Source of the DNA: a virus
Strand: one strand, 5' to 3'
Virus record (IMG/VR): IMGVR_UViG_3300045988_136606
Span: 1-58,597 of that record
DNA: 58,597 nt
In this document: positions 1 through 58,597 of the stretch, piece after piece
How the letters are laid out: the number at the start of each line of letters is the position of its first letter
How positions within the stretch are numbered: position 1 is the stretch's first letter
The notes under the pieces: generated by a model
Told to the model about the DNA's origin: nothing
Databases searched by the model: none
The model's input: only the letters and a program-made list of their open reading frames with translations
Made by a program: the position numbers and the translations under genes

Positions 1-55
1 TTGGAGTGCATTGTAGGGAAACCTAAGTTCTAGGATAAAGAGCCTAGACAATGAA
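1..55. repeat. Terminal overlap; bases 1-55 are identical to 58543-58597 (circular or circularly permuted molecule)
   Basis: Direct comparison of the window ends: ttggagtgcattgtagggaaacctaagttctaggataaagagcctagacaatgaa occurs at both ends. Confidence 0.9.
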
Positions 56-61
56 AAAACG
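1..61 (+). ncRNA. 3' end of the group I intron in the tape measure gene (continues from 57534-58597 across the junction)
   Basis: Contains the block ggataaagagcct shared with the terL intron. Ends in G at 61, immediately before the in-frame exon 2. Confidence 0.7.
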
Positions 62-2280
62 TAGCTGGATGGGATGCTCAACAATCTGCAGCAGGACTTC
101 CTGGAGTATTAAATTTAGCGGCAGCTTCAGGCATGGATTTAGCACAAGCATCAGATTTGGTAACTGATTATTTGACAGCATTCGGATTAGAGGCTGACCA
201 AGCGGGTCGTATGGCAGACGTACTATCTTATGCACAAGCTAACTCGAATACAACAACTGAAATGCTAGGAGAAGCATTTAAGAATTGTGCAGTCAATGCA
301 CATAATGCGGGTATGAGTTTGGAAGAAACTACTGCAATACTTAGTAAATTTGCAGATGCTGGTCTAAAGGGTAGTGAAGGTGGTACTGCACTGAATGCGA
401 TTATTAGAGATATGACACAAAAGATGAAAAATGGTGCAATACAAATAGGCAATACAAAGGTACAAGTACAAGATGCTAATGGAAACTTTAGAGAAATGAC
501 TGATATTATAGCGGATGTAGATAAAGCAACAGAAGGTATGGGAGATGCTCAAAAGACTGCTGCACTAATGACAACATTTACGGCAGACTCTATAAAAGGT
601 ATGGGGATTTTATGTAATACAGGCGCAGACAGTATAGAAGAATTCACAAAGAAATTAGAAAATAGCAATGGCACAGCTGAAAAGATGTCTAATATGATGA
701 ATCAAAATTTATCAGGAGCTTTAAAAACTTTGAGCAGTGCTTGGGAAGCATTGCAGCTTAGCTTAGGAGACTCTACTGGACCACTCTCATTATTAGTAGG
801 TCTATTAACTAAATTATTACTAGCAATTAAAAATTTACCTGCACCAGTTAAGCAAGTAATAGTAACTTTAGCATTATTAGCAGCAACAATCGGTCCAACA
901 TTATTAATCATAGGGAAAATGATACAAGCATGGGTTAAAATGAAAGAAACTATTGGGATACTAAGATCTGGATTTGGTCTACTACGTGGAGTATTGTCAG
1001 GTTTACCTTCAGTATTTGGAATAATTCAAGGAGTAGTTAGTACTGTTGGTGGAGCATTAAGTTCCTTATGGGCAGTATTAATGGCTAATCCAATTATATT
1101 AGTGATAGGAATTATAGCAGCTTTGGTAGCTACATTTATTTATTTTTGGAATACAAGTGAAAGCTTTAGACAGTTTTGGATTAATTTATGGGAAACTATT
1201 AAGACAGCTGCAGTTAATGCTTGGAATACAATAGGTACTTTCTTTACAACAACGGTACCGCAATGGATAAGTAATATAGGAACATGGTTTAGCCAATTAC
1301 CAGAAACAATATGGTATTGGTTATGCTTTGCAGTAGCTTATGCTGTACTTTGGGTAGGACAAATGGCACAAAAGGCATATGAAGCTGGTTCAAAATTTGT
1401 GCAAAATGCTATTACATTTATCCAACAGTTACCAGGTAAAGTATGGACTTGGTTAGTAAATACTATTAGTCGTGTTGGTAGTTGGGCTACACAAATGGCA
1501 AGCAAAGCACAACAAGCCGGTAGTAAATTCTTACATAGCGTGATTACATTTATACAACAATTACCAGGTCGTGTATGGTCTTTTTTAACATCAACAATCT
1601 CAAGAGTAATATCTTTTGCAACACAATTTGCACAAAAGGGAACACAAGCGGCACAGACATTTAAAAACAATATTATAAATGGTATTAGCAGTTTACCTAG
1701 CAGAATGGTAAGTATAGGAAGTAATATCATACATGGTATTATAAGTGGTATTACAAGCGCTGCCGGCAGCTTATTTAGTACAATGCAAAATATAGCAAGT
1801 AGAGCCTTAAATGCAGCAAAAGGAGCTTTAGGAATACACTCACCTTCAAGAATATTTAGAGATGAAATAGGTAAAATGATTCCTAAAGGCGTGACTGTTG
1901 GTATCGAAGCAAATGCGGGGCAAACTATAAAGGCTATTAAAGATTATGCTAGCAGCTTGGTAACTGCGATAGATACAAATAAATTTCTAGGTCAAGTTAA
2001 TATGAGTACTGCCGGTATTAATATAAATAGTGAAAACAACACAGATAGTAGTTTATTATATGCAATAAAAAGTATGGCACAAGCAATACAAGATAGTAAA
2101 CAAGAATTTGATTATAAAGAGATGGGTAAACAATATAGAAAAGCATTACAAGATACTAACACTCCAATTATAATGGACAAAGTAGTGGTAGGGCAAAAGG
2201 TGGCTAAATCAGTACAAGACACAAATGATTACTTACAAAACCAACAAGATAGATTTAGAGGTGATAAGGATTATGTATAA
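62..2280 (+). CDS. Tape measure protein, exon 2
   Basis: The frame is open from 55. AGWDAQQSAAGL continues the conserved TMP motif begun in exon 1 (ALGYMAL|AGWD). Long hydrophobic and repeat-rich central part. Sits upstream of Dit/Tal. The tracked ORF 133-2280 is the same frame. Confidence 0.85.
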
Positions 2281-4483
2281 TTATTTTAATTTTAATGGTT
2301 CGCAAATAAATGATTTAGCAATAGTAACTAGTATAGAAAAACCTTACATACCGGAAAAATCTATCGATACCATAAATGTTAGCAGCAGGGATGGAGAAAT
2401 ATTTGACGGGGCAAAATATGATCCTGTAACTATTCCTATATCCCTTGCAGTAATAGGAGCTAGTGAGGAGGAATATAGAACTCGTGTACAATGTTTACAC
2501 GATATACTAAGTACCAAACAGGAAGTGCCAATAAAATTTTGTGAGAATATTACAATTTATGGTATGTTAAAAGGTGCATTAAAGGTAAAGAAAAAGAATA
2601 GTATGAGTGGTTATGCTGACATTGAACTTATATGCCACACACCATATAGCTATAGTGATAATGTACATGCTTACAATGCTGAGGATGGACAACAGACTGT
2701 AGTAGTTGAGAACAATGGTGAATTAGCAACTCTACCATATGTAAGTATAGGCTTTGGAGCAGATGCACATTTTGCACAGGTACAAAATAATAAAACTGGA
2801 GAAAAAATATTAGTAGGTGATTATCCACAACTACAATTAAGCACAACAAAGAGTGAACAAACATTAATATTACATGACCCTTGTACGAGCGTAGGTACAT
2901 TAATTCAAAGTGGTGCTAATATTAATTCTGGTCGTGGCACAGGTGGTTCTTTTACTATATCTTCTGGTGGTGAGAGTTTTATACTTAGTGAACTAGGTAG
3001 TAGTAGCACAGAGAAAATAAAAGGTGCGTGTGCACGTATTGCATTAAGTAAAAATATTGATGATTTTAAAGTAATGGTTAGAATGCAATGTAGGTCAAGT
3101 GGTAAGAACGGTGACCCAAACAATATTTTAAGTGAGCAGGAAAAAGTTAAAGAGAAGGTAATTGAGGGTGGCAAAGTTTATTACTATGAAGTAACTGCCA
3201 ACGGTGTTAATTACAGAACTCAACCAAGTACAAAGGGGAAATCCCAAGGTATTATTCCAAAAGGAACAAAATTAACAGATGTTACTATACAGAATGGTTG
3301 GGCAAAGATAAAATACAAAACTAAGACCTATTATGTATCTGCAAAATATATAAAAAAACAAGTAAAGGACAATTCTAAAAGTGTTGTAAAGGAATTTACA
3401 GTGGCTAATATGTGGTTAACACCAGATAAAACACTAACAGGTGGCAGTGGTGTTGTATATACAAAACCTAACCCAGGCAGTAAGGTAGAATGCACTATAC
3501 CATACGGGACAAAACTTAGAATAATTCAAAGAGCATATACATATAAACCAAAGGATTCTAATAGCGCTTCTCAAACAATAACATACTATAGAATATATAA
3601 ACCTTGGAAGGATAAAAACGGGAAAAAACATTATGGTTATATAAATGTAGATAACCTTAAGGGTGCAGCAGCAATGGATAATAGTGTTGATTATAGTGAT
3701 GACCCAGCATATGCAGACCACAAGACTGGGATAGCTGAGGTATATGGATTTGATATTAATGGTACTCAAATATTTAGATTGTATTTAGGTGATATTAATC
3801 AATACTTTGAATATAATCAAGCTGAGGTGAGTGTAAGTAAGAAATCCATATTAATCACAAGTAACGATAAACCAAAAGAAAAGACAGATAAAACTGTTGA
3901 TTCCTCAGGTAAAACTGTTACTAATCATTACATGAGTGGTCAACATGGTAGTTGGAATGATGCCAATGCTTACTTCACATTGACAAGGAAGAAAACAGGT
4001 AAAAACTATGTATATAGTGCACAAGTACAAAAGAATGATAATGGAACGTTTACTCAGTCTATATCAGCCAATAACAAACGTAGCAGTGAATACTCTACCG
4101 AACCATTAAGTTACTTAGCTATATATCTAGGAACAATGGCAGATAAGTTAGAAAATGCTTGTGGAGTCGGTATTAGTGATATAAGAGTATATGAATTGAA
4201 TCCGGAGAGTGAGGAGATTTCTAATATAAAATACTTTGAAGCAGGTGATAAATTAGACTTGGATTTTGAGAATGGTGATTGCTATTTAAACAATGAGCTG
4301 AGAAATGATTTAGTAGATATCGGTAGTTCATACTTTACTGTAGATGAAGGCGAAACAACATTACAAGTATTTAGCGACGACACTACTGCCAGTATCGGAG
4401 TATTAATAAGGGAAAAATGGTTAGGTGTGGTTGATGAGGACAGAAGTACACCATCCCAAGATTTGAATTTAACCAGCGAATAG
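2273..4483 (+). CDS. Distal tail protein (Dit) with an inserted SH3b-like domain
   Basis: The ATG at 2273 overlaps the TMP stop (ATGTATAA), with RBS agaggtga upstream. N-terminal siphovirus tail-component-like sequence. SH3_3-like segment GVNYRTQPSTKGKSQGIIPKGTKL...WAKIKY. Confidence 0.7.
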   Translation: MYNYFNFNGSQINDLAIVTSIEKPYIPEKSIDTINVSSRDGEIFDGAKYDPVTIPISLAVIGASEEEYRTRVQCLHDILSTKQEVPIKFCENITIYGMLKGALKVKKKNSMSGYADIELICHTPYSYSDNVHAYNAEDGQQTVVVENNGELATLPYVSIGFGADAHFAQVQNNKTGEKILVGDYPQLQLSTTKSEQTLILHDPCTSVGTLIQSGANINSGRGTGGSFTISSGGESFILSELGSSSTEKIKGACARIALSKNIDDFKVMVRMQCRSSGKNGDPNNILSEQEKVKEKVIEGGKVYYYEVTANGVNYRTQPSTKGKSQGIIPKGTKLTDVTIQNGWAKIKYKTKTYYVSAKYIKKQVKDNSKSVVKEFTVANMWLTPDKTLTGGSGVVYTKPNPGSKVECTIPYGTKLRIIQRAYTYKPKDSNSASQTITYYRIYKPWKDKNGKKHYGYINVDNLKGAAAMDNSVDYSDDPAYADHKTGIAEVYGFDINGTQIFRLYLGDINQYFEYNQAEVSVSKKSILITSNDKPKEKTDKTVDSSGKTVTNHYMSGQHGSWNDANAYFTLTRKKTGKNYVYSAQVQKNDNGTFTQSISANNKRSSEYSTEPLSYLAIYLGTMADKLENACGVGISDIRVYELNPESEEISNIKYFEAGDKLDLDFENGDCYLNNELRNDLVDIGSSYFTVDEGETTLQVFSDDTTASIGVLIREKWLGVVDEDRSTPSQDLNLTSE

Positions 4484-45757: not shown

Positions 45758-46618
45758 ATGGCAAGGGTAAGAAGTCCAAACAGAGATAAAGCATTTGAGA
45801 TATATAAATTAAATAACGGTGAAATCTTACTCAAGGATATTGCTACGCAGCTTGGGGTTAAAGATACTCAGATAAGGAAATGGAAATCTCAAGACAAATG
45901 GGAAGAAAAAATAAAAGGAACGTTACCTAAGAATAAAAGGAACGTAACTAATAAAAAAGTAGCTAAAAAGAAGAATACAGAACAGACTGATTTTAATGAA
46001 GTGGAGTCAATATTAGAAAATACTAAACTTACTGATAAGCAAAAGCTTTTCTGTATTTATTATATAAAGAGTTTTAATGCTACCAAAGCTTATCAGAAAG
46101 CTTATCAATGCAAGTATGATGTAGCTAATTCAGAAGGATATAAGCTTCTTGTAAAACCTTGTATCAAATTAGAAATACAAAAGCTTAAGAAAAATAAACT
46201 TAATAGAGCTATGTTAAGTGAAGATGATATATTTCAAAAGTATATAGATATAGCTTTTGCAGATATAACAGATTACTTAGAGTTCAATAGTAAGGAAGTA
46301 CAAGGCGAATATGGAACATACACTAAAAATACTATAAGCCTTAAAAATAGTGGCGAAGTAGATGGAAGCTTAATAAGTGAGATATCAGAAGGCAGAGACG
46401 GAATAAAAATAAAGCTACAAGACAAAATGAAAGCATTGCAATGGCTATCAGATAGAATGGACTTATTACCTACTAGTGTAAAAACTAAACTTGATATAGA
46501 AATGCTTAAACTGGAAGTGGAAATGAACAAACATGATAATACACAAGAAGAAGTAGAAAACGATGGATTTATAGAAGCTTTAAACAATGCGACAGATGAG
46601 GTATGGAACGATGAATAA
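45758..46618 (+). CDS. terS: Terminase small subunit
   Basis: N-terminal HTH (ILLKDIATQLGVKDTQIRKWK) and Terminase_2-like LTDKQKLFCIYYIKSFNATKAYQKAY. Confidence 0.8.
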   Translation: MARVRSPNRDKAFEIYKLNNGEILLKDIATQLGVKDTQIRKWKSQDKWEEKIKGTLPKNKRNVTNKKVAKKKNTEQTDFNEVESILENTKLTDKQKLFCIYYIKSFNATKAYQKAYQCKYDVANSEGYKLLVKPCIKLEIQKLKKNKLNRAMLSEDDIFQKYIDIAFADITDYLEFNSKEVQGEYGTYTKNTISLKNSGEVDGSLISEISEGRDGIKIKLQDKMKALQWLSDRMDLLPTSVKTKLDIEMLKLEVEMNKHDNTQEEVENDGFIEALNNATDEVWNDE

Positions 46619-47348
46619 GCTTGATGTATTAGAAAAGAAATGGTCCAAAATAAAAAATAATAAAGTCCATACAGTGAAAAAAGCTACTATAAAATTTAAA
46701 CCATTTTCCACTAAACAAAAGAAGGTCCTTACATGGTGGATGGACAATTCACCAGTACATGATATGGATGGAATTATAGCAGATGGAGCTATACGTTCAG
46801 GAAAAACTGTATCAATGTCACTAGCTTATGTTGTATTTGTCATGGAAAAGTTTAATGGACAAAACGCTGGTATGTGCGGTAAAACAATAGGCTCATTTAG
46901 AAGAAATGTACTGTTTTGGCTTAAATTAATGTTAAAAGCTAGAGGATATAATATACAAGATAAAAGAGCAGACAATCTATTAATAGTAACAAAAGGTAAT
47001 GTTACTAATTATTTTTATATATTTGGTGGAAAAGATGAAAGGTCACAGGATCTTATTCAAGGGGTTACATTGTGTTCGTGTTTCTTTGATGAGGTTGCGT
47101 TAATGCCTGAATCTTTCGTTAATCAAGCCACTGGTAGATGTTCAGTGACAGGAAGTAAGTTTTTCTTCAATTGTAACCCAGGGGCACCTTTCCATTGGTT
47201 CAAGAAAAAATGGATAGATGAAGCTGAAAAGAAAAATTTATTGTATTTACATTTTACAATGGATGATAATTTGTCTCTATCAGAAAAGATAAAAGCTAGA
47301 TATAAAGCAATGTATACTGGAGTGTTTTATAACAGATATATTTTGGGT
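46611..47348 (+). CDS. terL: Terminase large subunit, exon 1 (ATPase domain)
   Basis: Walker A GAIRSGKT and Walker B FFDEVALM. Ends ...FYNRYILG. The ATG overlaps the terS stop. Confidence 0.85.
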
Positions 47349-47650
47349 TAACATATTGGCCCCACATATCAGAAATGATATGTTGCAAATTGGGTTAAAA
47401 TTGGAAGGCTAAGTACATAAGTACAAATGTATATGCTAATCAATTACCAATCCTAATGAGAAATCTTAGGAAGGTTTAACGACTAGATAAAGTAAGCTAA
47501 GTAGAAGATACTCTTTTGAGTATCTTTTTATATGCAGAAATATCCACGAAATCCAAAACCTTACCAAGTAAAGTTGAAGGTTATGAGATAGTCTGAACTA
47601 TATAGAAATGTATAGAAGTGAAGGATAAAGAGCCTTTACGATAACAAATG
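47349..47650 (+). ncRNA. Group I intron (ORF-less, 302 nt) in terL
   Basis: Exon 1 ends in U and the intron ends in G. An in-frame TAA sits at the first intron codon. Splicing gives ...RYILG|QWAVADG.... It has P1 (GGGU/GCCC) and P2 (ACATATC-agaaat-GATATGT), and shares long blocks with the TMP intron. Confidence 0.8.
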
Positions 47651-48289
47651 CAATGGGCAGTGGCAGATGGAGCTATATATCCTATGTTTAATCCGGAAAT
47701 ACACGCAGTTCAAATGAAAAGAAACTGGACAAGGATATTTATAGCTGGAGACTTTGGGATACAAAATGCCACTACTTTTGGCATATTTGGATATTACGCA
47801 CCTGAAAAGAGATATCATCAAATAGCATCCTATTATCATAATGGTAGAGAAGAAGGGCAAAAGACAGTAAAAGAGTATGTGTCAGATTTAAAGAATTTTA
47901 TACGAGAAAACATGGTTATGCCAGAATATATTGCTATTGACCCAAGTGCAGCACCACTAAGAGTAGAACTACTAAAAGATGAATATTTTAGTAGACATAA
48001 TATAAGAATTATAGCAGCTAAAAATAATGTAGAAATAGGAATACAAATGGTATCTTATTTACTTAATATAAATAAATTCACTTTAGATCCAAGCTGCATT
48101 CATGATATAGAAGAATTTGGTTCGTATGTATGGGATAGTGATAAATTAGATAAAGGAAAAGAAGAAGTTGTAAAAATAAATGACCATGCCATGGACAAGA
48201 TAAGATATGCACTAATGACAGATACAACTATACATAGAACATTTGATAGAGAGCTTAAACTATTTAGCGGTAAAGGAGCAAGAGAATAG
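47651..48289 (+). CDS. terL: Terminase large subunit, exon 2 (nuclease domain)
   Basis: QWAVADGAIYPMF...IAGDFG...NDHAMD. Same frame as tracked ORF 47648-48289. Confidence 0.85.
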   Translation, partial: QWAVADGAIYPMFNPEIHAVQMKRNWTRIFIAGDFGIQNATTFGIFGYYAPEKRYHQIASYYHNGREEGQKTVKEYVSDLKNFIRENMVMPEYIAIDPSAAPLRVELLKDEYFSRHNIRIIAAKNNVEIGIQMVSYLLNINKFTLDPSCIHDIEEFGSYVWDSDKLDKGKEEVVKINDHAMDKIRYALMTDTTIHRTFDRELKLFSGKGARE

Positions 48290-56472: not shown

Positions 56473-56871
56473 ATGAGTGTTATAAGTGCTGAAGCTTTTA
56501 AAAATAAAGCCACAAGAATTATAAAAATAGATGGATTTGAACCAAACGAAAAAATCGAAGTAAGAATAAAACCTGCGAGTATGTTAGGAATGATAGCAGC
56601 GGGAAAACTTCCTAATAATCTATTACAAACAGTAGATGATTTATTTATTAGTAAAGGTAATAAAAAATCAAAAGGAAAAGTTGATACATCTGATATGAAT
56701 CCAGATGAACTTAAAATGGTAATGGAAATGATAGATACTATCTGTAGAGATTGCATGGTAGAACCATTATTTGATGATATAAAAATGTTTATGACTGATA
56801 CTCAAAAGATGCAAATAATGAGTGAATCAACGGGAACTGTTAATGCAGTTATACCCTTTATTCAAAAGTAG
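56473..56871 (+). CDS. Tail assembly chaperone (gpG-like)
   Basis: Position between the major tail protein and TMP genes. RBS taggagg. Confidence 0.65.
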   Translation: MSVISAEAFKNKATRIIKIDGFEPNEKIEVRIKPASMLGMIAAGKLPNNLLQTVDDLFISKGNKKSKGKVDTSDMNPDELKMVMEMIDTICRDCMVEPLFDDIKMFMTDTQKMQIMSESTGTVNAVIPFIQK

Positions 56872-57103
56872 GAAAATAATAAATGTTATTAGTACTGCTA
56901 AAACTTTCGGATGTCGCCCTAGTGATATACTAGGCATAGAAGACGATGACATATATGCACGATACTGTATAGATGAAGCATGTACATATCTTTATAATAG
57001 AATGCAACCAAATAAGGATGGAAAGAGTGAAAAGCCTACGTTTATAGAAGATATACAAGAAAGCAAGCATCATAATCCAGGATTAGATTTATTAATGAAT
57101 TAG
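56822..57103 (+). CDS. Tail assembly chaperone extension (gpT-like), overlapping in the +1 frame
   Basis: Overlaps the gpG-like ORF by 50 nt with no convincing RBS of its own. Candidate shift sites are CCC_U (56854-56857) and C_AAA_AG (56863-56868). Confidence 0.45.
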   Translation: MNQRELLMQLYPLFKSRKIINVISTAKTFGCRPSDILGIEDDDIYARYCIDEACTYLYNRMQPNKDGKSEKPTFIEDIQESKHHNPGLDLLMN

Positions 57104-57104
57104 T

Positions 57105-57140
57105 AACTGTAAGATTATAAAAGTCTTACAGTTTTTTATT
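57105..57140 (+). terminator. Strong intrinsic terminator-like hairpin between the chaperone and TMP genes
   Basis: AACTGTAAGA-N9-TCTTACAGTT followed by TTTTTATT. Confidence 0.6.
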
Positions 57141-57160: not shown

Positions 57161-57533
57161 ATGGCAGGAGTAGATTTAGGTAGTATAGTTGCACATTTAA
57201 AACTAGAGATGAATGATTTTAATAGCAAGCTAAATGAAGCGGTTGCAAAAGTTAAAGATACACAGACACAATTTGAAGGATTGAGTTCTTTTGGTAAATC
57301 ACTATCAACTGTAGGTGCAGGGCTTACTGCCAGTATAACAGCGCCGGTAATGGCATTAGGTGCTAGCGTAGTAAAAACACAAATGCAATTCGAACAAGCT
57401 ATGTCAAAAGTTCAAGCATTATCTGGTGCTACTGGTAGTGATTTACAATTATTAGAAGATACTGCTAAGCAGTTAGGTGAGAGCACCGTTTATAGTGCAA
57501 GTGAAGCAGCAGATGCTTTAGGTTATATGGCGT
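57161..57533 (+). CDS. Tape measure protein, exon 1
   Basis: RBS aaaaggaggtgagg. Ends ...EAADALGYMA(L). The codon TTA is split t|ta across the intron. Confidence 0.8.
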
Positions 57534-58597
57534 TAAAGGCTAGCGCGGTTATAGAGAAATCTATAGCATAAATAGAGGGTTAAAATTGGAAAGCTAAGTA
57601 CAAATGTATATGCTAATCAATTACCACTTCATATAGGGATATATGAAAGGTTTAGAGACTAGGAGAAGTACTCTAGAACAGAAGAAACTTCCACGAAATC
57701 CTCTGCCCTAACGTAAAGCCGAGGGCAATGATATAGTCCAACTCTTATTTTGAATTTTCATATAGAGTATGCTATAATAAATATAGAATAACAAATATGA
57801 AAAGGAGAAATGCAATGTATAAAAATATTGATTTTTTTAAAAAGATGAAAGAAGAAGGCAAGACATTACAGGAAGTATCTCAAATGTGCAATGTAAGTAC
57901 TAAAACTATAACTAATTGGGAAAAAAGATTCGATATAAAATTAAGTAGAAGTAATACTAGAAAATACTATTTTGATGAAGAATACTTTTTAAACATAGAT
58001 AATGAAGAAAAAGCTTATTTTTTAGGATTAATAATGGCAGATGGGTACATAAATAAAGAAAACAGAACTCTAGTAGTTACTTTAAAAAATGAAGATTCGT
58101 ATATTTTAGAACAATTATTAAAAAGTGTAGGAAGTAATAATACTCTAAAAAATAAAAAAAATAATACTCAAAAATCAGCTATATTATGTTCTAAAAAAAT
58201 GGTAAATATATTGAATGAAAAATTTAGTTTGTATCCTAATAAAACTTATAATTTAAAATTTCCTGTTTTAAAAGAAGAATTAATGAGACACTTTTTAAGA
58301 GGATATTTTGATGGAGACGGATATATAGGAGAAAGACAATGCTCATTAATTATAGCTAGCGAGTGTTTTTTAAATGGAGTTTTATCATTTTACAAAAAAG
58401 TTTTTAATAAAGATATTTACGTTGAAGAATTTGAACATTATTATAATTTGAGATTTAATAAAAAGGATAGAGATATTATAAAATATATGTATGAAGATTC
58501 TAACATTTTTTTAAAAAGAAAAAAAGAAAGATATGAAAAATATTGGAGTGCATTGTAGGGAAACCTAAGTTCTAGGATAAAGAGCCTAGACAATGAA
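57534..58597 (+). ncRNA. Group I intron in the tape measure gene (about 1070 nt; continues to position 61 after the wrap)
   Basis: Exon 1 ends in U. P1 GCGU/GCGC and P2 TATAG-agaaat-CTATA. It shares these blocks with the terL intron: GGGTTAAAATTGGAA.GCTAAGTACAAATGTATATGCTAATCAATTACCA, CCACGAAATCC, ATAGTC..AACT and GGATAAAGAGCCT. Confidence 0.8.
57815..58558 (+). CDS. LAGLIDADG homing endonuclease (intron-encoded, double-motif)
   Basis: Motifs YFLGLIMADGYI and LRGYFDGDGYIG. RBS aaaaggag. The C-terminus overlaps the intron 3' core. Confidence 0.85.
   Translation: MYKNIDFFKKMKEEGKTLQEVSQMCNVSTKTITNWEKRFDIKLSRSNTRKYYFDEEYFLNIDNEEKAYFLGLIMADGYINKENRTLVVTLKNEDSYILEQLLKSVGSNNTLKNKKNNTQKSAILCSKKMVNILNEKFSLYPNKTYNLKFPVLKEELMRHFLRGYFDGDGYIGERQCSLIIASECFLNGVLSFYKKVFNKDIYVEEFEHYYNLRFNKKDRDIIKYMYEDSNIFLKRKKERYEKYWSAL

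What the first reader, a model, noticed from the sequence alone, without database searches (positions are those of the whole stretch)
57534..58597. Second, paralogous group I intron with a LAGLIDADG endonuclease inside the tape measure gene, spanning the window junction
TMP exon 1 ends ...ALGYMA-t (57533) and exon 2 begins ta-GCT GGA TGG GAT at position 62 of the circular map. Joining them restores the conserved TMP motif GYMALAGWD in frame.

The intron is about 1070 nt. It shares near-identical blocks with the terL intron (57577-57626 versus 47392-47450, plus CCACGAAATCC, ATAGTC..AACT and GGATAAAGAGCCT). It also has the same P1 and P2 layout, including an identical P2 loop (agaaat).

A double-motif LAGLIDADG ORF is inserted in a peripheral loop where the terL intron has only a short hairpin. 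Its last codons overlap the 3' core. Two related introns in two late structural genes suggest intragenomic intron spread. Introns in tape measure genes are not commonly annotated.
Basis: partly seen in the sequence, partly recalled or inferred. Interest (0 to 1): 0.65.

Follow-up and report, generated by a model that had tools for sequence, protein, structure and literature searches.

The report
Mobile intron splitting phage tail-length gene
The tail tape-measure gene of this uncultured phage is interrupted by a 1,070-base self-splicing group I intron that carries its own LAGLIDADG homing-endonuclease gene; this is a well-supported new example of a kind of mobile element already known in phage tail and packaging genes.

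Summary
The window is a circular contig with a 55-bp terminal duplication. The tape measure (TMP) gene is split at 57533 | 62 by a 1,070-nt insert.

- **Splice junction:** removing the insert gives an 863-aa in-frame TMP, and intron-less homologues have the same continuous ALGYMALAGWD motif.
- **Ribozyme:** the insert has all the group I hallmarks: P1 with a U•G pair at the 5' splice site, P10, P2-P9, the P3/P7 pseudoknot, P7.1 and a terminal G. It scores 48.5 bits on Rfam RF00028 (threshold 50, E 1e-11). The terL intron scores 51.5 bits.
- **Covariation:** in 35 distinct family members from viral contigs, 98% of pair cells are paired and 21 of 44 pairs show compensatory changes.
- **Endonuclease:** the 247-aa ORF is a double-motif LAGLIDADG enzyme (AlphaFold pLDDT 95). 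It is inserted in the 5' strand of P9.
- **Mobility:** near-identical phages lack this intron, or carry it together with a second, HNH-encoding intron 104 nt downstream. The exon between the two is mosaic in the way co-conversion predicts.

The suggested intragenomic spread is not supported. The TMP intron is closer to same-site TMP introns of distant phages (82-87%) than to its own terL intron (70%). TMP and terL group I introns were described in 2008, so this is a new member of a known kind.

The parts
57161..57533 (+). TMP exon 1 (aa 1-124 plus the first base of codon 125)
   Evidence: The exon frame reads on into the intron and stops at the TAA at 57569-57571.
57534..58597 (+). Group I intron, the part up to the window end. 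58543-58597 duplicates 1-55, so on the circle the intron is 57534-58542 plus 1-61 (1,070 nt).
1..61 (+). Last 61 nt of the intron, ending ...GACAATGAAAAAACG. G61 is the terminal (omega) G.
62..2280 (+). TMP exon 2 (TA GCT GGA TGG ... stop TAA at 2278-2280)
57530..57546 (+). P1. Exon GCGU (57530-57533) pairs with the internal guide GCGC (57543-57546). U57533•G57543 is the wobble pair at the 5' splice site.
   Evidence: Read. In relatives the exon and guide bases covary: GGGU/GCUC, GGCU/GGUC, GCCU/GGGC, GGGU/GCCC. The Rfam alignment also pairs this region.
57539..57542 (+). P10 guide GCUA, which pairs with exon 2 UAGC (62-65)
   Evidence: Read. The MFE fold of the ORF-deleted intron makes this pairing. 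The terL intron has the equivalent AUUG/CAAU.
57550..57565 (+). P2 hairpin UAUAGA-GAAA-UCUAUA
   Evidence: The stem sequence differs while the GAAA loop is kept in relatives.
57575..57581 (+). P3 5' strand, which pairs with 57697-57703
   Evidence: Two of its pairs show compensatory changes.
57584..57622 (+). P4-P5-P5a domain
57623..57651 (+). P6/P6a hairpin with a GGGA loop
   Evidence: Seven of its 11 pairs show compensatory changes.
57657..57661 (+). P7 5' strand GACUA (R element GGUUUAGAGACUAG). It pairs with UAGUC at 57734-57738 (S element AUAUAGUCC) and forms a pseudoknot with P3.
   Evidence: Both strands are invariant in the set, and both were fixed by the search and extraction patterns.
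57662..57691 (+). P7.1 / P7.1a, an extra domain between P7 and P3' that is typical of subgroup IA
   Evidence: Five of its 6 pairs show compensatory changes.
57697..57703 (+). P3 3' strand
57704..57727 (+). P8 hairpin
   Evidence: All 5 pairs covary.
57734..57738 (+). P7 3' strand UAGUC
57746..58555 (+). 810-nt endonuclease cassette (GC 22%, against 37-38% for the ribozyme and exons). It is inserted in the 5' strand of P9, between CU (57744-57745) and UAGG (58556-58559).
   Evidence: ORF-less same-site introns (L022, L042, L011, L032) have an intact P9, CUAAGG-GAAA-CCUUAG, at this place.
57750..57778 (+). Promoter-like site TTGAAT-17-TG-TATAAT upstream of the endonuclease gene. It is a consensus match only.
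   Evidence: It is the best match in the region, but the number of matches is not above chance.
57815..58558 (+). LAGLIDADG homing endonuclease gene (247 aa plus stop). It has an N-terminal 3-helix HTH and two alpha-beta-beta-alpha-beta-beta-alpha domains. The motifs are LGLIMADGY and LRGYFDGDGY.
58556..58569 (+). P9 distal hairpin UAGG-GAAA-CCUAAG. The stop codon UAG (58556-58558) is part of the stem.
58572..58589 (+). P9.1 hairpin CUAGG-AUAAAGAG-CCUAG. The loop is identical in the terL intron and the stem is compensated (AAGG/CCUU).
47349..47650 (+). Homologous ORF-less group I intron (302 nt) in terL. Exon 1 is 46587-47348 (...RYILG) and exon 2 is 47651-48289 (QWAVADG...).
   Evidence: (RF00028 51.5 bits, above the gathering score of 50).

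Best explanation
The insert is a self-splicing group I intron of the phage-type IA architecture (IA2-like, with P7.1 between P7 and P3'). It interrupts the tape measure gene after the first base of codon 125.

**Splicing (inferred from structure).**
- The last exon bases GCGU pair with the internal guide GCGC to form P1, with a U•G wobble at the splice site.
- An exogenous guanosine bound in P7 attacks after U57533.
- The guide bases GCUA then hold exon 2 (UAGC) in P10.
- The freed exon 1 attacks after the terminal G61, and the join restores ...GYMA-L-AGWD....

**The endonuclease.** An 810-nt AT-rich cassette carrying a monomeric double-motif LAGLIDADG homing endonuclease with an extra N-terminal HTH has been inserted into the 5' strand of the peripheral P9 stem. 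Its stop codon UAG has been built into the stem.

**Mobility (inferred).** During mixed infection the enzyme cuts intron-less TMP alleles near the insertion site. Repair from the intron-carrying genome then copies in the intron together with a few tens of bases of flanking exon.

**Shown here:** the anatomy, the covariation, the covariance-model match, the intron-less alleles, the presence/absence polymorphism with a mosaic flank, and the protein fold.

**Not shown here:** splicing and DNA cleavage themselves.
For: **Junction**
- Splicing gives an in-frame 863-aa TMP.
- PF10145 matches as a single stretch across the junction.
- Intron-less homologues have a continuous ALGYMALAGWDA.
- L003 exon DNA is 100% identical to the window for the first 371 nt of exon 1, up to 2 nt before the insertion site, and has no insert there.

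**RNA**
- RF00028 matches over the full model (positions 1-253) at 57524-57760, with 48.5 bits and E 1.2e-11. The terL paralogue gives 51.5 bits and E 2e-12.
- The P4-P7 core pattern was found at 51 places in 49 viral loci; all but three also have the S element within reach, giving 35 distinct sequences from P3 to P7'.
- RNAalifold predicts P3, P4, P5, P6, P7.1 and P8, and 21 of the 39 predicted pairs are compensated.
- With P7 added, 98.1% of cells are paired, against 28-47% when partners are slid. There are 258 double-change cells against 77 in shuffles, and 0 of 500 shuffles reach the observed values.
- The P1 guide covaries with the exon in relatives.
- There is a U before the 5' splice site, a G as the last intron base, and a 4-bp P10.

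**Protein**
- PF14528 E 5e-14.
- The acidic residues of both motifs are invariant in 26 homologues: D76, and D166/D168 within FDGDG.
- The AF2 model has pLDDT 95 and two alpha-beta-beta-alpha-beta-beta-alpha units.
- The top Foldseek hits are the TliVMA intein endonuclease, I-Tsp061I, the bI3 maturase, I-AniI and I-DmoI.

**Mobility**
- L003 lacks this intron; L056 has it together with an HNH intron 104 nt downstream.
- In L056 the first 31 nt of the exon between the two introns match the window type and the rest match the L003 type.
- L013 carries the same cassette with the ORF deleted between A/T-rich repeats.
- Family members also occur in genome records of Romboutsia, C. difficile and S. 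suis.
Against: - No RNA or enzymatic data exist for this element.
- The RF00028 score is 1.5 bits below the curated gathering score. The match was also missed when the whole window or 12 kb was searched, because of the speed filters.
- P7 and P4 are invariant in the family set. Their strands were fixed, wholly or largely, by the search and extraction patterns, so they carry no covariation evidence.
- The family alignment was collected with a pattern that fixes part of the core, so the diversity sampled is biased.
- The mosaic exon in L056 could also come from ordinary recombination between phages.
- Metagenome contigs can be chimeric.
Confidence: 0.9

Rival explanations
1. The ribozyme splices, but the LAGLIDADG protein is no longer (or not only) a homing nuclease. 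It could act as a maturase that helps its own intron fold, as I-AniI and bI3 do, or it could be an inactive passenger. In either case the intron would now be inherited only vertically.
For: - The bI3 maturase and the bifunctional I-AniI are among the best structural matches.
- The ORF cassette interrupts the P9 stem, which could make folding less autonomous.
Against: - The acidic residues of both motifs are invariant across 26 homologues.
- The ORF is intact and 100% identical in other samples (P0121: 26 member sequences, 3 contigs).
- There is presence/absence polymorphism between near-identical TMP alleles, with a short flank that travels with the intron.
- ORF-less relatives at the same site keep the same core, so the ribozyme does not obviously need the protein.
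Confidence: 0.12
2. The TMP intron arose recently by transposition of the terL intron, or the reverse, inside this genome.
For: The two introns share the same architecture and exact blocks of 15-24 nt. An analogous homologous terL/TMP pair in one prophage is reported in PMC2504315.
Against: - Identity between the two cores is 70% (57% counting gaps). The TMP intron is 82-87% identical to TMP-site introns in phages with only 31-45% TMP identity.
- The terL intron is of the 'long' form, with an extra P7.2 hairpin, which several terL-site introns of distant terminases share.
- P1, P2, P3, P6, P8 and P9 all differ in sequence between the two.
Confidence: 0.05
3. The insert is a non-splicing disruption (a dead gene or defective phage) or an assembly artefact at the circularisation point.
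For: The feature spans the contig ends, and no expression data exist.
Against: - Three independent assemblies (L056, L057, L007) contain the same sequence at 96.7-98.8% identity. L056 and L057 run straight across the window's circularisation point; L007 stops 35 nt short of it.
- The exons are perfectly in frame, with conserved residues on both sides.
- The RNA structure is under purifying selection with compensatory changes.
Confidence: 0.02

Closest known systems
Group I introns TMP-IVS1/2/3 and term-IVS1 of Bacillus cereus-group prophages (Tourasse & Kolsto 2008, PMC2504315)
   Same: - They are IA1/IA2 group I introns inserted in frame in conserved parts of the tape measure gene.
- Several insertion sites exist per gene.
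- A homologous intron sits in the terminase large-subunit gene of the same prophage, with a different P1.
- Some copies carry homing endonuclease genes, and different endonuclease families sit in homologous introns.
   Different: - The hosts and phages are different.
- The one compared directly, the Tavor_SA intron, sits at another TMP site (GL|KGS); the published IVS1-3 positions were not compared with this one.
- The endonucleases reported there are GIY-YIG and H-N-H, not LAGLIDADG.
- Sequence identity to the one GenBank relative found (Bacillus phage Tavor_SA) is only 73% over 107 nt.
Split tape-measure gene of Bacillus phage Tavor_SA (KY963369, Wbetavirus)
   Same: It has the same ribozyme architecture: P2 with a GAAA loop, the R/S elements, a GAGAUAAAGAGCUC hairpin and an ...AACAAAUG 3' end. 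It interrupts the TMP and is left unannotated between two 'tail length tape-measure protein' CDSs.
   Different: It has no ORF and is about 257 nt long. It is inserted about 100 codons further downstream, in the GLKGSxAGT motif.
terL introns of Lactobacillus phage LL-H, Bacillus phage Moonbeam and the Bastillevirinae
   Same: They are group I introns in the terminase large subunit, often several per gene and carrying HEGs. Splicing has been shown experimentally for some of them (PMC4299906; PMC11878797).
   Different: The phage groups are different. No sequence comparison was made here. Only 1 LAGLIDADG ORF was reported among the Bastillevirinae introns.
Phage T4 td / nrdB / nrdD (sunY) introns, the subgroup IA2 archetypes (from general knowledge, not compared here)
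   Same: They have the IA2 layout with P7.1/P7.2, a free-standing HEG in a peripheral element with its own expression signals, and homing with co-conversion of flanking exon markers.
   Different: The T4 introns encode GIY-YIG or HNH-type enzymes and sit in nucleotide-metabolism genes rather than virion genes.
Monomeric LAGLIDADG enzymes I-DmoI, I-Tsp061I, I-AniI and bI3, and the endonuclease domain of the TliVMA intein
   Same: They share the two-domain alpha-beta-beta-alpha-beta-beta-alpha fold, with one LAGLIDADG helix per domain ending in an acidic residue.
   Different: Sequence identity is only 13-22%. The window protein has an additional N-terminal MerR/HTH_23-like three-helix domain.

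Membership tests
Group I intron (Rfam RF00028; Michel-Westhof architecture) | Match to the curated covariance model at or above its gathering score | tested here: inconclusive
   The TMP intron scores 48.5 bits against a gathering score of 50, with E 1.2e-11 and the full model length. The homologous terL intron scores 51.5 bits, above the threshold. Both were missed in whole-window searches because of the speed filters.
Group I intron (Rfam RF00028; Michel-Westhof architecture) | Conserved core helices P3-P8, supported by compensatory base changes | tested here: met
   In 35 distinct sequences, 98.1% of cells are paired and 21 of 44 pairs have changes on both sides. Slid controls give 28-47%.
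Group I intron (Rfam RF00028; Michel-Westhof architecture) | P3/P7 pseudoknot, with P7 (the G-binding helix) formed by the R and S elements | tested here: met
   GACUA (57657-57661) pairs with UAGUC (57734-57738) and crosses P3 (57575-57581 / 57697-57703). P7 is invariant, so it is supported by complementarity and by the Rfam alignment only, not by covariation.
Group I intron (Rfam RF00028; Michel-Westhof architecture) | 5' splice site after a U that forms a U•G pair in P1 with an internal guide sequence; last intron base is G; P10 with the 3' exon | tested here: met
   U57533•G57543 lies within GCGU/GCGC. G61 is the last intron base. P10 is UAGC (62-65) with GCUA (57539-57542). The guide covaries with the exon in relatives.
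Group I intron (Rfam RF00028; Michel-Westhof architecture) | Precise removal restores the host reading frame and its conserved sequence | tested here: met
Group I intron (Rfam RF00028; Michel-Westhof architecture) | Guanosine-dependent self-splicing | not testable with these tools
   This needs in-vitro transcription with GTP, or RT-PCR from infected cells.
Subgroup IA2 | Extra P7.1/P7.2 helices between P7 and P3' | tested here: met
   P7.1 (57662-57665 / 57688-57691) and an inner helix have compensatory changes in 5 of 6 pairs. The terL form has a further hairpin.
Subgroup IA2 | The remaining subgroup-specific criteria that separate IA2 from IA1 and IA3 (J-region lengths, P2/P9 tertiary contacts) | not tested
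   No subgroup-specific models were available. The assignment rests on the layout and on the similarity to the Bacillus phage Tavor_SA TMP intron; B. cereus-group phage introns are classed IA1/IA2 in PMC2504315.
LAGLIDADG homing endonuclease (monomeric, double motif) | Two LAGLIDADG motifs, each ending in a conserved acidic residue | tested here: met
   The motifs are LGLIMADGY and LRGYFDGDGY. D76, D166 and D168 are invariant in 26 homologues. PF14528 gives E 5e-14 with two stretches.
LAGLIDADG homing endonuclease (monomeric, double motif) | Tandem alpha-beta-beta-alpha-beta-beta-alpha fold | tested here: met
   The AF2 model has pLDDT 95 and the element order matches. Foldseek gives probability 1.00 to I-Tsp061I, I-DmoI, I-AniI, bI3 and the TliVMA intein endonuclease.
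LAGLIDADG homing endonuclease (monomeric, double motif) | Site-specific cleavage of the intron-less allele | not testable with these tools
   This needs a cleavage assay on the L003-type site ...GGTTATATGGCAT|TAGCTGGTTGGGATGC....
Mobile (homing) intron | Presence/absence polymorphism at the same site in otherwise near-identical genes, with exon flanks that travel with the intron | tested here: met
   L003 is 100% identical to the window through position 371 of the 373-nt exon 1 and has no intron there. In L056, which has both introns, the first 31 nt of the 104-nt exon between them match the window type and the remaining 73 nt match the L003 type. Ordinary recombination cannot be excluded.

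The most novel reading that the evidence does not exclude
The tape measure gene of this phage group may be a battleground of competing mobile introns. There are at least two independent elements 104 nt apart in this phage group, one LAGLIDADG and one HNH, and Bacillus phage Tavor_SA has an intron at a third TMP site. In this reading the LAGLIDADG enzyme works mainly as an interference weapon. In mixed infections it cuts the TMP gene of related intron-less phages, which lowers their yield and imposes its own exon flank on them. That would be more than neutral selfish homing.

A related possibility is that splicing of two late structural genes (terL and TMP) couples virion production to the GTP or energy state of the cell.
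Probability: 0.15. Interest if true: 0.55.

Novelty: new member of a known kind. Interest (0 to 1): 0.3.

Why it matters
**For annotation.** The tape measure gene of this phage and of its relatives should be annotated as one spliced 863-aa gene plus an intron-encoded endonuclease. At present gene callers produce a 127-136-aa fragment, a 'hypothetical' ORF and a truncated TMP. Database entries P0004, P0005 and P0007 start at an artificial Met taken from the intron end of the neighbouring HNH intron. Tail length predicted from TMP length would be wrong if the fragments were used.

**For biology.** The locus is a clean natural example of several known behaviours:
- intron sub-lineages that largely track their insertion site (TMP YMA|L and terL ILG|xW) and are shared across very distant Firmicutes phages, with relatives in Romboutsia, C. 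difficile and S. suis genome records;
- gain and loss of the endonuclease gene within one ribozyme lineage;
- short co-conversion tracts between two closely spaced introns.

It also adds a LAGLIDADG enzyme with an N-terminal HTH to the small set of phage-borne LAGLIDADG homing endonucleases. That enzyme is a possible new rare-cutting specificity.

None of this changes current concepts.

Tried and rejected
- **Rfam searches on large stretches.** The whole window at gathering thresholds, and 12 kb at E<=10, gave no group I hit. This was a filter effect, not an absence: stretches of about 300 nt gave RF00028 at 51.5 and 48.5 bits.
- **Megablast of the TMP/intron region against GenBank phages.** No match. 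The 'distant' mode found only Bacillus phage Tavor_SA and Streptococcus phage SW18, at 72-73%.
- **P0015/L005 and the break in L001.** I first suspected these marked further introns. tblastn shows simple frame changes with almost no inserted DNA, so they are frameshifts or assembly errors rather than introns.
- **A second copy in the window of the other intron lineage (the HNH/GIY-YIG type seen in L003 and L009).** None was found, even allowing 3 mismatches.
- **Other possible identities.**
  - Intein: rejected because the insert has in-frame stops, and the ORF is in its own frame with its own ribosome-binding site.
  - Group II intron: rejected because the structure is that of group I.
  - Free-standing HEG between two genes: rejected because exon 2 has no start codon and the conserved motif is continuous across the junction.
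- **Naming the host genes of the remaining family members.** A quick script that took the longest upstream ORF was unreliable, so I dropped it.
- **Sequence search of the ORF against the PDB.** It gave only weak hits to intein endonuclease domains. The fold comparison was needed.
Full report
**1. What is in the sequence**

The window is a circular contig. Bases 1-55 repeat 58543-58597, so the true length is 58,542 bp.

The reading frame that starts at 57161 follows a pair of overlapping tail-chaperone-like ORFs and encodes the N-terminus of a tape measure protein (TMP). It runs to ...GCT TTA GGT TAT ATG GCG T at 57533 and stops 38 nt later. The TMP frame resumes at position 62 with TA GCT GGA TGG GAT.

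The part between is 57534-58542 plus 1-61, which is 1,070 nt. Deleting it gives an open 863-aa frame ending at 2280. In this spliced protein the Pfam domain PF10145 matches as one continuous stretch (residues 99-297) across the junction at residues 124/125.

An independent assembly (L056) is collinear with the window through the circular junction at 98.8% identity, so the join is not an artefact.

**2. The junction is the one used by intron-less genes**

A search with the spliced N-terminus found many uninterrupted TMPs (88%, 77%, 58% ... identity). All of them read ALGYMALAGWDA, or close variants, without a gap.

The most telling case is contig L003. Its TMP DNA is 100% identical to the window for the first 371 nt of exon 1, it has no insert at the site, and it starts to differ by silent changes 2 nt before the insertion point.

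**3. The insert is a group I ribozyme**

These elements can be read directly from the sequence:
- P1: exon GCGU pairs with the guide GCGC at 57543-57546, with U57533•G57543 at the splice site.
- P10: the 4 bases just 5' of the guide (GCUA) pair with the start of exon 2 (UAGC).
- P2: a hairpin with a GAAA loop.
- R and S elements: GGUUUAGAGACUAG and AUAUAGUCC, which form P7.
- 3' end: the last intron base is G61.

The whole-window Rfam search was negative, but this was due to the speed filters. Given about 300 nt, RF00028 (Intron_gpI) aligns over its full length to 57524-57760 with 48.5 bits and E 1.2e-11, which is 1.5 bits under the gathering score. It aligns to the terL intron with 51.5 bits, which is above it.

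A pattern built from the P4-P7 core matched 49 viral-contig loci. Nearly all of them also have the P3' motif and the S element at the expected spacing. An alignment of the 35 distinct cores gives an RNAalifold consensus with P3, P4, P5/P5a, P6/P6a, P7.1 and P8. In that consensus, 21 of 39 predicted pairs keep pairing through changes on both sides.

I then added the P7 pseudoknot and counted pairs:

| Measure | Observed | Control |
|---|---|---|
| Cells forming a standard pair | 98.1% | 28-47% when 3' partners are slid by 1-3 columns |
| Cells with a change on both sides | 258 | 77 ± 9 in shuffles |
| Shuffles reaching the observed values | 0 of 500 | |

P4 and P7 are invariant, partly because the search pattern fixed them, so they carry no covariation evidence.

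The P1 guide changes together with the exon in relatives: GCGU/GCGC, GGGU/GCUC, GGCU/GGUC, GCCU/GGGC and GGGU/GCCC. The presence of P7.1 between P7 and P3' is the layout of phage-type subgroup IA (IA2-like).

The MFE fold of the intron with the ORF cassette removed recovers P2, P3, P4-P6, P8, P9, P9.1 and the P10-type pairing.

**4. The ORF and where it sits**

ORF-less introns at the same TMP site in other phages (L022, L042, L011, L032) have P9 as CUAAGG-GAAA-CCUUAG, followed by the hairpin CUAGG-AUAAAGAG-CCUAG.

In the window, an 810-nt block (57746-58555) is inserted between the second and third base of the 5' strand of P9. Its GC content is 22%, against 37-38% in the ribozyme and exons. 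The stop codon UAG (58556-58558) forms part of the re-made stem UAGG-GAAA-CCUAAG.

The gene most likely starts at ATG 57815, 8 nt after AAAGGAG. The identical database protein P0121 is 247 aa. A TTGAAT-17-TG-TATAAT promoter-like site lies just upstream, but this is a consensus match only.

The evidence that the protein is a LAGLIDADG enzyme:
- It hits LAGLIDADG_3 (E 5e-14) and has an N-terminal HTH.
- The acidic residues of both motifs are invariant in 26 homologues.
- The AlphaFold model (pLDDT 95) has a three-helix N-terminal domain and two alpha-beta-beta-alpha-beta-beta-alpha units.
- Its best structural matches are the TliVMA intein endonuclease, I-Tsp061I, the bI3 maturase, I-AniI and I-DmoI.

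The nearest relatives (54% identity) sit in an intron of a major capsid gene in other phages, again in P9.

**5. Evidence for mobility**

Four observations bear on this:
- **Presence/absence.** Among near-identical TMP genes, the window has only the LAGLIDADG intron. L003 has only a different 1,289-nt intron with an HNH ORF, 104 nt downstream at VT|DYLTAFG. L056 has both.
- **Mosaic flank.** In L056, the first 31 nt of the 104-nt exon between the two introns carry the variants seen in the window, and the remaining 73 nt carry those of L003. This is what short co-conversion tracts on either side would produce, although ordinary recombination is not excluded.
- **Endonuclease loss.** L013, in a distant TMP, has the same cassette with the ORF deleted between A/T-rich direct repeats. 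This is the expected degeneration step of the homing cycle.
- **Distribution.** Family members also occur in genome records of Romboutsia lituseburensis, Clostridioides difficile, Streptococcus suis and a Bacilli MAG.

**6. Relation to the terL intron**

The terL gene is split after ...RYILG (47348) by a 302-nt ORF-less intron that ends ...AACAAAUG (47650). It has P1 GGGU/GCCC and P10 CAAU/AUUG. It is clearly homologous to the TMP intron: they share exact blocks that are not expected by chance, and P2, P3, P6, P8 and P9.1 are compensated between them.

They are not each other's closest relatives, however. Core identity between them is 70% (57% counting gaps). The TMP intron is 82-87% identical to introns at the same TMP site in phages whose TMP is only 31-45% identical. 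The terL intron shares its long P7.2-containing form with several introns at the same terL site in terminases that are only 24-31% identical. This argues for sub-lineages largely tied to their insertion sites that move between phages, and against a recent jump inside this genome.

One detail is worth noting. The related TMP-site introns are inserted one base earlier (ATGGCU| or ATGGGU|, phase 0) than the window's intron (AUGGCGU|, phase 1). The position follows where a U is available.

**7. Comparison with what is known**

- Tourasse & Kolsto (2008, PMC2504315) described IA1/IA2 group I introns at three sites in the TMP genes of B. cereus-group prophages. They also described a terL intron in the same prophage that is homologous to a TMP intron but has a different P1, and unrelated HEGs (GIY-YIG and H-N-H) in homologous introns.
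- Bacillus phage Tavor_SA in GenBank has its TMP split into two CDSs by an unannotated intron of the same architecture, at another site.
- terL introns are known from LL-H, Moonbeam and the Bastillevirinae.
- Reviews state that phage introns mostly encode GIY-YIG, HNH, PD-(D/E)xK or EDxHD enzymes (PMC3984707), and only one LAGLIDADG ORF was found among the Bastillevirinae introns. The LAGLIDADG gene is therefore the less usual feature here, but it is not unprecedented.

**8. Verdict**

The main interpretation is right and the intragenomic-spread inference is not supported. This is a new member of a known kind, and it is of moderate-to-low interest beyond correct annotation. The phage itself is only distantly related to cultured phages: its major capsid protein is at most 50% identical to those of Streptococcus phages Dp-1 and MS1 and of Brevibacillus phages.

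Noticed in passing
window 1-55 and 58543-58597: There is an exact 55-bp terminal duplication, which is the signature of a circularly assembled contig. The true length is 58,542 bp. Any feature near either end, this intron included, must be read on the circle.
   Followed up: yes
L003 1153-2441; L056 from about 4894; L002 1-72; L004 upstream of 171: Close relatives carry a second, different group I intron (1,289 nt in L003, with a 288-aa HNH ORF) in the same TMP gene. It lies 104 nt downstream, at VT|DYLTAFG. Gene callers start the downstream TMP fragment at an artificial Met taken from the intron's terminal ...AAATG (P0004, P0005, P0007).
   Followed up: partly
L009 12506-13470 and 13758-14478 (also L006, L010): In related phages terL carries two introns. 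One, with a GIY-YIG ORF, is at aa 159/160 (DLIQG|VTLCS). At the window's terL site, L009 and L006 carry a version of the window's intron with a LAGLIDADG ORF inserted just after the P7 5' strand; L010 has the ORF-less form there. The window has only the ORF-less form. The 3' part of the GIY-YIG intron resembles the HNH intron of the TMP.
   Followed up: partly
L013 673-830: The same P9 cassette as in the window is present, but with the endonuclease ORF deleted between the repeats TTTTTTTAAAAAG. In the window these repeats lie at about 57834 and about 58506. This is a degenerating copy in a distantly related TMP.
   Followed up: partly
L055 (KY963369.1 9240-9496): GenBank's Bacillus phage Tavor_SA annotates two separate 'tail length tape-measure protein' CDSs. 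The gap of about 257 nt between them is an unannotated group I intron of the same architecture, inserted in GL|KGSDAGT.
   Followed up: partly
L058 3690-4811 (also L059, L060): A LAGLIDADG protein 54% identical to the window's lies between a 271-aa Phage_capsid fragment and a 116-aa ORF. It appears to be inside an intron of a major capsid gene with a different ribozyme core, and is again inserted in P9.
   Followed up: partly
window 56473-56871 and 56822-57103; 57105-57133: Two overlapping ORFs lie directly upstream of the TMP. This is the usual position of the tail assembly chaperone pair that is expressed by programmed frameshift. They are followed by a terminator-like 12-bp hairpin plus a T-run just before the TMP start.
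   Followed up: no
L001 about 2518-2521; L003 about 3038-3089; L005 about 3743-3748: The TMP reading frame changes without inserted DNA in three metagenome contigs. This is probably assembly or sequencing frameshifts, and these are not introns.
   Followed up: partly
This hints at the host range of the intron family.
   Followed up: no
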